A DNA stretch of 64,000 nucleotides from Candidatus Pyrohabitans jungbluthii (GTDB lineage Archaea; Hydrothermarchaeota; Hydrothermarchaeia; Hydrothermarchaeales; BMS3B). This document shows, piece after piece, positions 49,957 to 53,009 of the stretch (positions are counted from its first letter, which is position 1; each line of letters begins with the position of its first letter). The notes under the pieces were generated by a model. It saw nothing but the letters and a program-made list of their open reading frames with translations, was not told where the DNA came from and did not search any database. The DNA lies in NCBI GenBank assembly GCA_002010065.2, contig MTMD02000014.1, positions 127,167-191,166 on the forward strand, read 5' to 3'. The translations under genes and the position numbers were made by a program.

Positions 49957-52900
49957 GCAACAGACCGCTCCACGCCACCTGGGGGATGGCTCGGCTCGGG
50001 CGCCGACGAAGGGCGTGACAAGCTGCGATAAGCCCGGGCGAGGCGCATGTAGCCGTAGAACCCGGGATGCCCGAATGGGAATCCCGTGCAGGTAAACCCT
50101 GCACGCTCCGTAAGGAGTGGGAACGCGGGGAAATGAAGCATCTGAGTACCCGCAGGAAAAGAAAGCAACAGCGATGCCGTGAGTAAAGGCGATCGAAAGC
50201 GGCAGAGGGCAAACCGAATCCCTGGGCGAAAGCCCCGGGAGATGTGGGGTTCGGAGCTACCATATGCCTCCCTCCTCGGAGAAGTCGAAGTCCTCTGGAA
50301 CGAGGCGCCGTAGAGGGTGAAAGCCCCGTAGACGCAATCCGAGAGGGAGAGCGGTAGCTCCAGAGTAGCGCGGGTTGGATATCCCGCGTGAAGGTGGGAG
50401 GCATCGACTCCCAACCCTAAATACGTCCCGAGACCGATAGCGGACTAGTACCGTGAGGGAAAGCTGAAAAGTACCCCTAGCAGGGGGTGAAAAGAGCCTG
50501 AAACCAGGTGGCTACAGCCCGTGGCGGCGTGAAAGGGTAGAGTCTCCCCGAAGGAAAGCGTCGCGAGGCGCGAGTACGAGGGGAGAGGACCAGCGTCGCC
50601 ACGTACGTTTTGAAAAACGGGGCGGGGAATTTGCGGTCATGGCGAGGCTAAGGGTGAAAACCCGGAGCCGCAGGGAAACCAACAGTCCGCAGCCTCTTCG
50701 GAGGCGAGGGACGGGGTGTGAAAGCGCCCGGAGTCATGGCCGCAAGACCCGAAACCGGTCGATCTACCCCGGGGCAGGGTGAAGCGTCGCGAAAGCGACG
50801 TGGAGGCCCGAACCGGTACTGATATTCAAATCGTTCGGGTGACCTCGGGGTAGGGGCGAAAGACCAATCAAGGCCGGTGTCAGCTGGTTCCTCCCGAAAT
50901 GTGTCGCAGCACAGCCTGGCCGGAGGTAGTTGGCGACGTAGAGCACTGATTGGGTGTTTAGGGGGCGAGAGCCCTCGGCACCCTGTCAAACTCCGAAGTT
51001 GCCAACGCCGTAGAAGGCCAGAGTGAGGGCGTGGGGGTAAGCTCCGCGTCCGAGAGGGGAATAACCCCGACCGGGGTTAAGGTCCGTAAGTGCCAGCTAA
51101 GTACTAAATAAGAAGGGCGTCCTTGGCCCAAGACAGCGGGAAGGTAGGCTTAGAAGCAGCCACCCTTTAAAGAGTGCGTAACAGCTCACCCGCCGAGGTC
51201 AAGGGCCCCGAAAATCGACAGGGTTAAGCTGGCCACCGATACCCCGGAAGAGCGCAAGCTCATTTGGTAGGGAGGCGTCCTGCTTGGGTAGAAGCTGGGG
51301 CGTAAGCTCCAGTGGACCGGGCAGGAATGAGAATCCCGCCAGTAGTAGCAGCAAAGTGGGGTGAGAATCCCCACCGCCGAAGGGGCGAGGCTTCCTCGGC
51401 AACGATCGTCAGCCGAGGGTTAGTCGGTCCTAAGGGCATGCGTAACACGACATGCCCGAAAGGGAAGCAGGTTAATATTCCTGCACCTCCCGGGTACGTG
51501 CGGCGACGCAAGCTCTGCTCCCGACGCTTCGGGTTAGGCCGAGCAGGACTGTCGTCCTGTTTAAGCGCTGAAGCCTGGGGAGAACCGTAATGGTGAGAAC
51601 CAGGTGAAGGCGCGAACAGGCTTCCGTAAGGAGGCTTCGGCTGAGACCTGGAGCCCGTGAAAAGGGAGCAGGGAAGGACCCCGGGAGACCGTACCAAGAA
51701 CCGACACTGGTGCCCCTGGGTGAGAAGCCCAAGGCGTGTCGGAGGAACGCGGTCGAGGGAACTCGGCAAATTGGCCCCGTATCTTCGGTAGAAGGGGTGC
51801 CAGCCCTGAGAGGGGCTGGTCGCAGTGACCAGGGGGCTCCGACTGTTTAATAAAAACACAGCCAGCCGCAAGCCCGAAAGGGTTAGTACGGCTGGTGACT
51901 CCTGCCCAGTGCCGGTACGTGAAACCCGGGTACAACCGGGCGAAGCGCCGGTAAACGGCGGGGGTAACTATAACCCTCTTAAGGTAGCGTAATACCTTGC
52001 CGCTTAATTGGCGGCTTGCATGAATGGATGAACGAGAGCCCCGCTGTCCCCGACCGCGGTCCGGTGAACCTGTTGTGCTGGTGCACAGACCAGCGACCCC
52101 CAACGGGTAAAGAAGACCCTGTGGACCTTTACTGCAGCCTGTCGTTGTGGCATGGCTGCGGATGTAGAGCGTAGGCAGGAGCCGTCGAAGCCGGGGCGCC
52201 AGCTCCGGTGGAGGCGCCAATGGAACACTGCCCGTCCGTGGTTATGCCACTAACCGCTTCGGCGGGACACCGGCAGGTGGGCAGTTTGGCTGGGGCGGCA
52301 CCCCCCTGAAAGGATATCAGGGGGGCTCTAAGGTCGGCTCAACCGGGTCAGAAATCCGGTGTAGAGTGTAAGGGCAAAAGCCGGCCTGACTGGATCCCGC
52401 ACAGAGAGGGATCCAGCCGCGAAAGCGTGACCTAACGAACCACCGTGTGCTCCTCGGTGGGGCCCGGTGATAACAGAAAAGGTACCTCAGGGATAACTGA
52501 GTTGTCGCGGGCAAGAGTTCACATCGACCCCGCGGCTTGCTACTTCGATGTCGGCTCTTCCCATCCTGGGTGTGCAGCAGCACCCAAGGGTGGGGTTGTT
52601 CGCCCATCAAAGGGGATCGTGAGCTGGGTTTAGACCGTCGTGAGACAGGTTAGTTTTTAACTGTTGGGGGTGTCGGTCGCCTGAGGGAAAGCAGCGCTTA
52701 GTACGAGAGGAACGGCGCTGCGCGGCCTCTAGTCTACCGGTTGTTCGACAGGGCACTGCCGGGCAGCCACGCCGTAAGGGATAAGGGCTGAAAGCATCTA
52801 AGCCCGAAACCCCTCCCGAAAAGAGGCGACCACTTCTCGGCGTTATCCGTATCGCTTATGCGATACGGGACCGGGGCCGGCGACGGCAACGGGTGCCGAG

Positions 52901-53009
52901 AACAAGGGCACGGGTAGAAGACCCGGTTGATAGAGCGGGGGTGTAAGCGGCGAGCCTTCGGGCGAGCCGTTCAGCCCGCCGCTACTAACAGCCCGAGGTG
53001 GTCTGTTGC
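49957..53009 (+). rRNA. rrl: 23S rRNA (ends approximate)
   Basis: Terminal helix GCAACAGACC/GGTCTGTTGC; GAAGCATCTGAGTACC; GATGTCGGCTC; sarcin-ricin loop AGTACGAGAGGAAC. Confidence 0.98.

What the first reader, a model, noticed from the sequence alone, without database searches (positions are those of the whole stretch)
52834..52902. Three-way-junction ES39-like expansion segment at 23S helix 98
Seen: a 69-nt insert downstream of the sarcin-ricin region. It folds as an outer helix TTCTCGGCG/TGCCGAGAA, hairpin A TCCGTATCGC-TTAT-GCGATACGGG, and hairpin B CCG-GG-GCCG-GCGA-CGGC-AA-CGG (GNRA loop, tandem G-A). Known: this position is helix 98/ES39. It is short or absent in most prokaryotes, and the branched form is described for eukaryotes and Asgard archaea. 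Inference: a compact branched ES39 in an apparently non-Asgard archaeon, either convergent or informative about expansion-segment origin.
Basis: partly seen in the sequence, partly recalled or inferred. Interest (0 to 1): 0.7.

Follow-up and report, generated by a model that had tools for sequence, protein, structure and literature searches.

The report
Branched helix-98 expansion in Hydrothermarchaeota 23S
A 69-base, three-armed extension of the large ribosomal RNA, of a kind so far described only for Asgard archaea and eukaryotes, is encoded in an unrelated vent archaeon, and its relatives have gained or lost the extra arm repeatedly.

Summary
Window 52834-52902 is a 69-nt insertion at the helix 98 (ES39) site of an archaeal 23S rRNA gene (49958-53008). 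It folds as a three-way junction: an outer helix, hairpin A and hairpin B (-42.8 kcal/mol, z -6.9).

The genome belongs to the Hydrothermarchaeota and has no eukaryote-like actin, so it is not Asgard.

- **Conserved core:** in relatives, the outer helix and hairpin B (tandem G-A, GNRA loop) are conserved and covary. The same hairpin B motif occurs in actin-bearing, Asgard-like genomes.
- **Variable arm:** hairpin A is a lineage-specific insertion in a 5'-strand bulge. Seven genomes of the order have an unbranched 44-46 nt helix 98. Seven have branched forms of 58-128 nt. The ML tree needs at least 6 gains or losses.
- **Wider survey:** among 401 archaeal genomes, a helix 98 of 51 nt or more was otherwise seen only in actin-bearing families and two small-genome families.

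Papers read here, up to 2026, give non-Asgard helix 98 as 0-45 nt and supersized ES39 as Asgard-only.

Whether the segment stays in the mature ribosome, or is excised as in Thermococcales, could not be tested. I read it as a new variant of a known kind, of moderate interest.

The parts
49958..53008 (+). 23S rRNA gene (archaeal LSU); 3051 nt against a 2987-position model
   Evidence: RF02540, 2994 bits, model 1-2987
52834..52902 (+). Helix 98 / micro-ES39: the 69-nt three-way junction
   Evidence: Unaligned insertion between model positions 2882 and 2883. MFE equals centroid, z -6.89.
52835..52842 (+). H98 outer helix, 5' strand (UCUCGGCG)
   Evidence: Pairs with 52894-52901. 8-10 consecutive pairs in 18 of 18 Hydrothermarchaeota-type sequences, with compensatory changes.
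52843..52846 (+). Junction strand UUAU. It corresponds to the 5'-strand bulge of the unbranched 44-46 nt forms.
52847..52868 (+). Hairpin A (Ha): a perfect 9-bp stem with a UUAU loop; lineage-specific insertion
   Evidence: z -6.59 alone. No insertion at this site in 7 genomes of the order and of different sequence in the nearest relative G006, whose flanking rRNA is 97% identical. The 22-mer is unique in the genome.
52871..52892 (+). Hairpin B (Hb): 3-bp stem, GG/AA tandem G-A internal loop, 4-bp stem, GCGA tetraloop
   Evidence: In 25 sequences, 95.5% of cells are paired, 7 of 8 pairs change on both sides, and 0 of 500 shuffles reach the score. GGG, G.GA and AC are invariant.
52894..52901 (+). 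H98 outer helix, 3' strand (UGCCGAGA)
49909..49966 (+). 5' half of the 23S processing stem: 22-nt lower helix strand (49909-30), GUGC (49931-34), AAU bulge (49935-37), 12-nt upper helix strand (49938-49), internal loop, then the H1 strand
   Evidence: Read from the sequence; complementary to 53000-53056
53000..53056 (+). 3' half of the processing stem: H1 strand, GAAAAG loop, upper helix strand (53016-27), GCAC (53028-31), UGA bulge (53032-34), lower helix strand (53035-56). Together with the 5' half this is a 3-4-3 bulge-helix-bulge motif.
   Evidence: Read from the sequence. No folding program was run on the two halves together.

Best explanation
The segment is a real, lineage-specific elaboration of helix 98 (the micro-ES39 site) of the 23S rRNA of a Hydrothermarchaeota archaeon.

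**Anatomy (shown).** An old archaeal module forms the core. It is an 8-10 bp outer helix stacked on hairpin B, which has a short stem, a tandem G-A internal loop, a 4-bp stem and a GNRA tetraloop. This core is conserved and covaries across the order. It is also found in actin-bearing, Asgard-like genomes.

**History (shown in part).** The unbranched 44-46 nt form has a bulge of 3 to 5 nt on the 5' strand, between the outer helix and hairpin B. In this lineage a hairpin (Ha, 22 nt here) was inserted at that bulge, turning a bent hairpin into a three-way junction. The same site has been expanded or contracted repeatedly in the order, to 58-128 nt, with Ha sequences that MAFFT did not align between families. 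This is stepwise accretion at a hot spot.

**Function (inferred).**
- The segment stays in the mature 50S subunit, on its solvent side next to H1 and the 23S ends.
- Hairpin B is the constrained part. Its GNRA loop and G-A platform dock on neighbouring rRNA or protein.
- Ha is a nearly neutral, self-contained, stable stem that points into solvent. It is selected only to stay folded.
For: **Site and fold.**

**Lineage.** G000 and G033 have no actin.

**Distribution in the phylum.** Of 38 genomes searched, 18 had a match and 15 gave both flanks. Of the 14 in the window's order:
- 7 are unbranched, 44-46 nt (G013, G016, G018, G020, G022, G024, G026)
- 7 are branched: G006 58, G000 69, G014 71, G012 81, G032 88, G005 98, G033 128

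The one genome of the other order has a plain 27-nt hairpin.

**Folds.** All 8 distinct branched H98 sequences of the order (7 genomes plus L028) fold as outer helix + Ha + Hb, and so do those of the actin-bearing families f70, f24 and f85.

**Covariation.**
- Hb: 95.5% paired, 7 of 8 pairs with changes on both sides, 0 of 500 shuffles as high; slid controls 22-52% paired.
- Outer helix: 8-10 consecutive pairs in 18 of 18 sequences, with GC/AU/UA/CG alternation at single positions.
- Ha of the 98-nt type: all 8 variable positions among 3 sequences lie in Ha or its flanking junction strands. The 5 that are paired all keep pairing, and two pairs run CG/UG/UA.

**Tree with H98 removed.** Sister pairs with opposite states are 45/81 (support 95/89), 46/71 (97/95) and 44/90 (90/89). 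The minimum is 6 state changes.

**Retention.** The same Hb-type ES39 is seen as density on Lokiarchaeum ribosomes in situ (PMC9834061, passages).
Against: No RNA-level evidence was obtained, so presence in the mature ribosome is inferred only.

- In Thermococcales an encoded and conserved H98 of 39-41 nt is cleanly excised and the 23S is circularly permuted (PMC7758197; bioRxiv 10.64898/2026.03.23.713588; passages).
- The junction sequences flanking H98 here (..GGCGACCAC | H98 | CAAGGGCAC..) closely resemble those of the loci I take to be Thermococcales.
- The 23S is flanked by a canonical BHB stem with 22-bp and 12-bp helices, as in P. furiosus.
- The very fast turnover of Ha is also what one would expect of a discarded spacer.
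- Hairpin A of the window itself has no covariation support. Its only close relative carries a different hairpin.
- The backbone of the tree is unresolved (6 of 13 inner branches below 80). The count of 6 changes is therefore soft; 3 contrasts are well supported.
- No 3D contact of Hb was tested.
Confidence: 0.6

Rival explanations
1. The whole of H98 is a transcribed but discarded segment. After BHB cleavage and ligation, the circular pre-23S is opened at the base of H98. H98 is then degraded and the mature 23S is circularly permuted, as in Thermococcales. Ha is free to vary because it never reaches the ribosome. Hb and the outer helix are conserved as a processing signal.
For: - Precedent in P. 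furiosus, T. kodakarensis and T. barophilus.
- H98 flanks are similar to those of the loci I take to be Thermococcales.
- A BHB motif with long flanking helices is present.
- The Ha site changes state at least 6 times in one order, with sequences that MAFFT did not align between families.
- The 2026 preprint leaves open whether permutation goes with the presence of H98.
Against: - The Thermococcales-like H98 lacks the GG/AA internal loop that Hydrothermarchaeota share with Asgard-like genomes.
- In Lokiarchaeum, ES39 is seen as density on ribosomes.
- S. acidocaldarius, which shows ES39L density, is reported not to be permuted.
- Ha keeps its pairing through compensatory changes, although a processing substrate could also require that.
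Confidence: 0.28
2. Only hairpin A is an intervening sequence. It is cut out after transcription and leaves a fragmented 23S held together by the outer helix and hairpin B, as with bacterial IVSs or the chloroplast 23S/4.5S split at this site.
For: - The chloroplast spacer at the H98 position is discussed in PMC7758197.
- Ha is a stable, self-contained stem-loop of variable length.
Against: - The papers read here report no archaeal case.
- From my own recall, not tested here: bacterial IVS removal depends on RNase III.
- Nothing in the sequence marks a cleavage site.
Confidence: 0.05
3. The insert is an assembly or binning artefact, or a copy of a small mobile palindromic repeat that landed in the rRNA gene.
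For: - Hairpin A is a perfect palindrome.
- One related 23S fragment sits in a MAG labelled Deltaproteobacteria, so binning errors do occur.
Against: - The window lies within bases 127167-191166 of contig C14, in a genome that is 99.95% complete in 15 contigs.
- The hairpin A 22-mer occurs only once in the genome, allowing up to 3 mismatches.
- Independent genomes and metagenome contigs carry insertions at the same site.
Confidence: 0.02

Closest known systems
ES39 of Asgard archaea (Penev et al. 2020, PMC7594248)
   Same: - Same site.
[quoted passage not shown]
- Actin-bearing genomes in my survey carry the same Hb motif, GGG..GYGA..AAC or CAC.
   Different: - The lineage is Hydrothermarchaeota, without actin.
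- The window's segment is 69 nt, below the 100-nt 'supersized' line; one relative reaches 128 nt.
- Ha is present in only half of the order's genomes.
- I did not check for an ES9 expansion. Net 23S length is only +64 against the model, which leaves little room for one.
H98 of Thermococcales (Birkedal et al. 2020, PMC7758197; T. barophilus preprint 2026)
   Same: - Same site and similar flanking junction sequences.
- Similar outer helix (UCCCUGGCG../..UGCCAGGGA) and a GCGA loop.
- BHB-flanked 23S.
   Different: - Unbranched, 40-42 nt, with no GG/AA internal loop.
- Shown to be excised, with a circularly permuted 23S. Here the fate of the segment is unknown.
Eukaryotic ES39 signature fold
   Same: H98, Ha and Hb are in the same order. 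Hb is capped by a GNRA loop.
   Different: Eukaryotes have three unpaired segments of about 15 nt at the junction and lack H1. Here the junction strands are 4, 2 and 1 nt, and H1 is present.
Bacterial H98 (E. coli)
   Same: Same site, and a solvent-side position next to H1 and the 23S ends.
   Different: A plain hairpin of 15 nt with no branch.
Branched H98 of an unnamed small-genome archaeal family (f28)
   Same: A 56-nt three-way junction at the same site in actin-less genomes.
   Different: Its second hairpin is a continuous 11-bp stem with a GUGA or GCGA loop and no GG/AA internal loop. This family seems to have expanded separately.

Membership tests
23S rRNA helix 98 / ES39 site | Lies in domain VI between the closing strand of H94 (after H95-H97) and H99 | tested here: met
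   Insertion between RF02540 positions 2882 and 2883
23S rRNA helix 98 / ES39 site | Colinear with an experimentally defined H98 | tested here: met
   Same alignment columns as the 40-42 nt segments of three loci I take to be Thermococcales. One of them (L035) contains the complement of the published P. furiosus H98 probe.
Asgard-type ES39 (H98/Ha/Hb three-way junction) | A three-way junction joining H98, Ha and Hb | tested here: met
   MFE equals centroid. The outer helix and Hb are supported by covariation. Ha of the window is supported by energy only.
Asgard-type ES39 (H98/Ha/Hb three-way junction) | Hb capped by a conserved GNRA tetraloop | tested here: met
   GCGA here. G.GA is invariant in 25 of 25 aligned sequences.
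Asgard-type ES39 (H98/Ha/Hb three-way junction) | Ha highly variable in length among relatives | tested here: met
   H98 runs from 44 to 128 nt within the order, and all the difference lies in Ha.
Asgard-type ES39 (H98/Ha/Hb three-way junction) | Supersized, over 100 nt (Penev's definition) | tested here: not met
   69 nt in the window. Of the 14 genomes of the order, only G033 (128 nt) passes.
Asgard-type ES39 (H98/Ha/Hb three-way junction) | Host is an Asgard archaeon | tested here: not met
   Relatives are named Hydrothermarchaeota. G000 has no PF00022 hit, against E about 1e-133 in 7 other genomes.
Asgard-type ES39 (H98/Ha/Hb three-way junction) | Present in rRNA of the ribosome (transcribed and retained) | not testable with these tools
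One search shows only that vent metatranscriptomes hold parts of this 23S.
Eukaryotic ES39 signature fold | Three long unpaired segments (about 15 nt) at the junction, and loss of H1 | tested here: not met
   Junction strands are 4, 2 and 1 nt. The H1 strands are present at both gene ends.
Thermococcales-type excised H98 with circularly permuted 23S | Encoded H98 plus a BHB motif in the 23S processing stem | tested here: met
   The BHB motif is reported as conserved at archaeal rRNA processing stems (abstract listed), so it does not discriminate.
Thermococcales-type excised H98 with circularly permuted 23S | H98 missing from mature rRNA, RNA ends at its base, and the ligated junction retained | not testable with these tools
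   Needs read-level RNA data or wet-lab mapping

The most novel reading that the evidence does not exclude
Hydrothermarchaeota ribosomes really carry this segment. ES39 with the H98/Ha/Hb three-way junction, reaching the 'supersized' range (128 nt), would then not be an Asgard-plus-eukaryote trait. It would be the repeated outcome of insertions at one bulge of an ancient archaeal H98-Hb module. A single order, with 44-, 58-, 69-, 71-, 81-, 88-, 98- and 128-nt forms among close relatives, would be a natural stepwise series for testing the accretion model of rRNA growth. ES39 density alone could no longer identify Asgard cells in tomograms.
Probability: 0.5. Interest if true: 0.65.

Novelty: new variant of a known kind. 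Interest (0 to 1): 0.5.

Why it matters
Papers up to 2026 treat large or branched ES39 as a link between Asgard archaea and eukaryotes. They also use it to recognise Asgard cells by cryo-tomography (passages read).

A euryarchaeal-grade vent lineage builds the same architecture on the same conserved hairpin B, and does so repeatedly. This shows the site is an insertion hot spot common to archaea. It weakens ES39 as a phylogenetic signal and gives closely related before-and-after pairs for studying how rRNA grows.

If the segment is instead excised, it would extend H98 removal and 23S permutation beyond Thermococcales. The 2026 preprint names that as an open question.

Tried and rejected
- **RNA-level test of retention.** One search found 20 runs (19 RNA). 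The best, a vent metatranscriptome kept as contigs, holds 0.56 of the sampled words of 49900-53100. No reads or contigs were laid on the region, so nothing can be said about H98 in RNA.
- **Taxonomy from a neighbouring protein.** The ESM Atlas returned only bacterial spermidine-synthase-like clusters and was of no use for placing the genome.
- **Mobile repeat origin of hairpin A.** Rejected: the 22-mer is unique in the genome.
- **Close relatives of the window's own hairpin A.**
  - The four same-genus genomes have no assembled 23S 3' end (0 of 4).
  - A metagenome scan with a 20-mer from H99 gave 9 loci, none of the 69-nt type: 2 of the 98-nt type, 2 of the 58-nt type, 2 of the 44-nt type, 1 without H98, and 2 too short to judge.
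- **Protein partner of H98.** The passages I read of the P. furiosus model paper name none. That model of ES39 was later questioned.
- **Junction sequences as a discriminator of excision.** They are alike in the putative Thermococcales loci, Asgard-like genomes and Hydrothermarchaeota, so they do not discriminate.
- **Print search.**
  - In some searches, no listed paper holds Hydrothermarchaeota together with ES39 or 'expansion segment'.
  - In one search, papers holding all three terms would rank first, and there were none.
  - One search listed 23 of 24 papers holding at least three of 'supersized', 'expansion segments', 'Asgard' and 'ES39'. Those I opened report no non-Asgard case.
  - Supplements of PMC7594248 (data set S3, ES39 lengths) and of PMC7758197 (Table S1) were not read and may list further lineages.
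Full report
**1. What is there**

The window carries a 16S - tRNA-Ala(UGC) - 23S operon. The 16S is at 48135-49623, the tRNA at 49737-49810 and the 23S at 49958-53008, all on the + strand.

Aligned to RF02540, the 3' part of the 23S matches the model throughout, with posterior probabilities near 1. The exception is one unaligned block, 52834-52902, between model positions 2882 and 2883. That point lies after the closing strand of H94 (downstream of the sarcin-ricin hairpin and H96-H97) and before H99-H101. 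It is the place of helix 98, from which ES39 grows in eukaryotes.

- an 8-bp outer helix
- a 4-nt strand (UUAU)
- hairpin A: 9 bp with a UUAU loop
- GA
- hairpin B: 3 bp, GG/AA internal loop, 4 bp, GCGA loop
- G

The energy is -42.8 kcal/mol, against -24.7 +/- 2.6 for shuffles (z -6.9; 0 of 200 as good). Each hairpin also folds alone, with z -6.6 and -3.4. The genome holds one copy of the region.

**2. Whose rRNA it is**

A pattern taken from hairpin B through H99 found 8 records among one genome per GTDB species:
- three are named Candidatus Hydrothermarchaeales or Hydrothermarchaeota
- two are named Methanobacteriota archaeon
- one is 'Archaeon BMS3Abin16'
- one is 'uncultured archaeon'
- one is a contig in a MAG labelled Deltaproteobacteria, evidently mis-binned

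Seven of the eight have an H98 identical to that of genomes genome search ranks in the same order as the window's genome.

G000 (1.99 Mb, 15 contigs, 99.95% complete) has no match to the actin family PF00022. Seven other genomes in my survey have a full-length match at E about 1e-132 to 1e-136.

Highly conserved eukaryote-like actin is described as present in all Asgard genomes (PMC12993045, passage). I therefore read those seven as Asgard-like and G000 as non-Asgard.

**3. Relatives: a conserved core and a movable arm**

Of 38 genomes of the phylum, 18 gave a match to the 23S 3' end. Fifteen of these had both flanks of H98. Three broke at contig ends.

| Group | Genomes (H98 length, nt) |
|---|---|
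| Window's order, unbranched (44-46 nt) | G013, G016, G018, G020, G022, G024, G026 |
| Window's order, branched | G006 (58), G000 (69), G014 (71), G012 (81), G032 (88), G005 (98), G033 (128) |
| Other order | G037 (27, plain hairpin) |

The mis-binned contig has 90 nt.

In the unbranched form, the outer helix continues into hairpin B, with only a bulge of 3 to 5 nt on the 5' strand. In every longer form the extra sequence sits at that bulge and folds on its own. The 128-nt form has a long Ha, and its MFE shows a weak extra stem that the centroid drops.

*Covariation*
- **Hairpin B, 25 sequences (Hydrothermarchaeota, Asgard-like and two others):** 95.5% of cells are paired. Seven of 8 pairs change on both sides. 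None of 500 shuffles reaches the score. Partners slid by 1-3 columns pair in only 22-52% of cells. The closing G-C, the GG and (mostly) AA of the internal loop, and G.GA of the loop never or hardly vary.
- **Outer helix:** 8-10 consecutive standard pairs in 18 of 18 Hydrothermarchaeota-type sequences. Single positions run through GC, AU, UA and CG.
- **Hairpin A of the window:** no such support. The nearest relative, G006, is 97% identical over 1636 flanking columns but carries a different, shorter hairpin at the same place.
- **The 98-nt type:** among three sequences (one genome, two metagenome contigs), all 8 variable positions lie in Ha or its flanking junction strands. The five that are paired all keep pairing.

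*Tree.* I built a tree from up to 1.6 kb of flanking 23S with H98 removed (16 rows; 6 rows under half filled; 6 of 13 inner branches below 80). It gives:
- sister pairs of opposite state: 45/81 (same genus, support 95/89), 46/71 (97/95) and 44/90 (90/89)
- a clade of the three family-f1 forms, 98,(69,58), at 98/97
- a minimum of 6 changes between branched and unbranched

MAFFT did not align the Ha sequences of different families. The hairpin A 22-mer is unique in the genome. I conclude that the bulge is an insertion and deletion hot spot. Gains are more economical than precise losses, but the direction of each change is not shown.

**4. How unusual it is among archaea**

*Anchor-based sample.* I measured the segment between fixed alignment columns in 62 further archaeal genomes. 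They were picked, at least one per family, from the 150 best-scoring rows of 426. The sample therefore leans towards good matches to a query that contained H98.

| H98 length (nt) | Genomes |
|---|---|
| 0-2 | 25 |
| 9-13 | 4 |
| 21-35 | 14 |
| 40-51 | 12 |
| 56-175 | 7 |

The 40-51 class includes three loci of 40-42 nt from one family of complete 1.7-2.2 Mb genomes. One of them holds the complement of the P. furiosus H98 probe, so I take the family to be Thermococcales.

The seven long ones are:
- f85: 175 and 65 nt
- f70: 61, 59 and 59 nt
- f24: 56 nt
- f28: 56 nt

Genomes tested from f85, f70 and f24 have the actin. G139, the f28 genome measured here, does not, nor do two further f28 genomes, G236 and G395.

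*Anchored pattern over 401 genomes.* Of these, 302 had a 23S 3' match. The pattern gave 29 places for a spacing that corresponds to an H98 of about 52-112 nt.
- Judged from the matched text, 4 are not rRNA.
- Two are short-H98 genes matched through a duplication or a chance downstream site.
- 23 are true:

| Lineage | Genomes |
|---|---|
| Hydrothermarchaeota | 6 |
| f24 | 4 of 4 |
| f70 | 6 |
| f85 | 1 |
| f117 (actin-positive) | 1 |
| f28 | 4 of 12 |
| f125 (51 nt, actin-negative) | 1 |

For the 113-173 nt spacing, 15 places came back. Two are true: G033 (128 nt) and the actin-positive G176 of f85. The exact anchors will have missed divergent genes.

In this sample, then, a segment above 55 nt occurs outside the actin-bearing families only in Hydrothermarchaeota and in f28. 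Above 100 nt it occurs only in G033.

The hairpin B motif itself (GGG..GYGA..AAC or CAC) is wider. It is found in Hydrothermarchaeota, in f70, f85 and f91 (actin-positive), and in f43 and f125 (actin-negative).

**5. Comparison with print**

- **Penev et al. 2020** (PMC7594248; passages read):
  - Asgard ES39 is described as a three-way junction of H98, a highly variable Ha, and Hb capped by a GNRA loop.
  - P. furiosus (45 nt) is given as the largest non-Asgard u-ES39, and the others as 0-45 nt.
  - Supersized is defined as over 100 nt.
  - Their count gives 45 nt for P. furiosus, where the Pyrococcus-like locus L035 gives 42 by mine. The window would therefore be about 72 nt on their scale.
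- **Rodrigues-Oliveira et al. 2022** (PMC9834061) state that these segments are absent from other archaea and use them to identify Lokiarchaeum cells.
- **A 2026 paper** (PMC13053709) repeats this. **A 2026 review** (PMC12993045) notes the use of the segments to identify Lokiarchaeum cells.
- **The 2026 T. barophilus preprint** summarises H98 as absent in DPANN, TACK and one euryarchaeal group, and present in the other group and in Asgard.

My searches found no paper joining Hydrothermarchaeota with ES39 or expansion segments. I did not read the supplementary tables of the first two papers.

**6. What it does**

*Shown.* The gene encodes a structured, evolutionarily maintained H98 with a conserved tip module and an added arm.

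*Inferred.* By analogy with E. coli and with the Asgard model, H98 lies on the back of the 50S subunit against H1 and the 23S ends. The GNRA loop and the tandem G-A of hairpin B are the kind of elements that dock on other RNA or on protein. Their invariance across phyla suggests that role. Ha then projects outward and is kept only as a stable stem, which is sensible for a thermophile.

I give about 0.6 to this 'retained expansion segment' reading.

**7. The main rival**

In Thermococcales the encoded H98 is excised. The 23S stays joined at the ligated BHB junction, so the mature molecule is circularly permuted.

Several features here fit that picture:
- The 23S is flanked by a textbook 3-4-3 bulge-helix-bulge motif. 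It has a 22-bp lower helix and a 12-bp upper helix, the latter with one G-U (49909-49949 with 53016-53056; read).
- The sequences on both sides of H98 resemble those of the putative Thermococcales loci.
- They equally resemble those of Asgard-like genomes, however, so they decide nothing.
- The fast turnover of Ha fits a discarded spacer as well as a solvent-exposed arm.

I give the rival about 0.28. The remaining alternatives are an IVS-like removal of Ha alone and an artefact or mobile repeat. Both are unlikely.

**8. Verdict**

The feature is a new variant of a known kind. It is an Asgard-like branched ES39 architecture, built on a shared ancient module, in a non-Asgard phylum. It reaches 128 nt in one relative and arose repeatedly.

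It matters mainly as a correction to the 'Asgard-only' picture and as a natural series for rRNA accretion. Its weight depends on showing that the segment is in the ribosome.

Noticed in passing
window 49909-49966 and 53000-53056: Canonical 3-4-3 bulge-helix-bulge motif in the 23S processing stem. It has a 22-bp lower helix, a GUGC/GCAC central helix, AAU and UGA bulges, and a 12-bp upper helix, followed by an internal loop and H1. This predicts EndA cleavage and a circular pre-23S.
   Followed up: partly
window 44000-64000: The gathering-threshold Rfam scan found 16S, tRNA-Ala(UGC) and 23S but no 5S rRNA downstream of the 23S. The 5S gene is therefore not linked to this operon within 11 kb.
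   Followed up: no
L028 (JAADFL010000184.1, 3645-nt contig): A Hydrothermarchaeota-type 23S 3' end with a 90-nt branched H98 sits in a MAG labelled Deltaproteobacteria. In the flanking-rRNA tree it is sister to G018 (support 90/89). This is probably a binning error.
   Followed up: partly
L127 (G405:C1:767749-767881): A genome of the family I take to be Thermococcales has the H97-loop stretch GCATCTAAGGCCGAAGCGG twice, 33 nt apart, just upstream of a normal-looking H98. This looks like a small duplication or insertion in H97.
   Followed up: no
L113-L116, L086 (family f28, genomes of 0.8-1.3 Mb): Four actin-less small-genome archaea have a 56-nt H98 that folds as a different three-way junction: GUGAC-UCC-GUCAC plus an 11-bp stem with a GUGA or GCGA loop. 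Another member of the family has a plain 35-nt hairpin (L074).
   Followed up: partly
window 43938-46208 (+): A 756-aa ORF whose nearest ESM-Atlas clusters are bacterial fused MFS/spermidine-synthase-family proteins (scores 0.88-0.90). This is only a lead.
   Followed up: no
L097 (metagenome contig Ga0190310_1002499): A 23S with the same 20-mer in H99 as the window but no H98 at all. H94 runs into H99 through a linker of a few nucleotides.
   Followed up: no
L008 and L011 (G020 and G012, same genus): Two species of one genus have nearly identical flanking rRNA (end branches 0.012 and 0.014) but differ by a 36-nt A/U-rich insertion in H98 (45 vs 81 nt). This is the most recent gain or loss seen.
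   Followed up: partly
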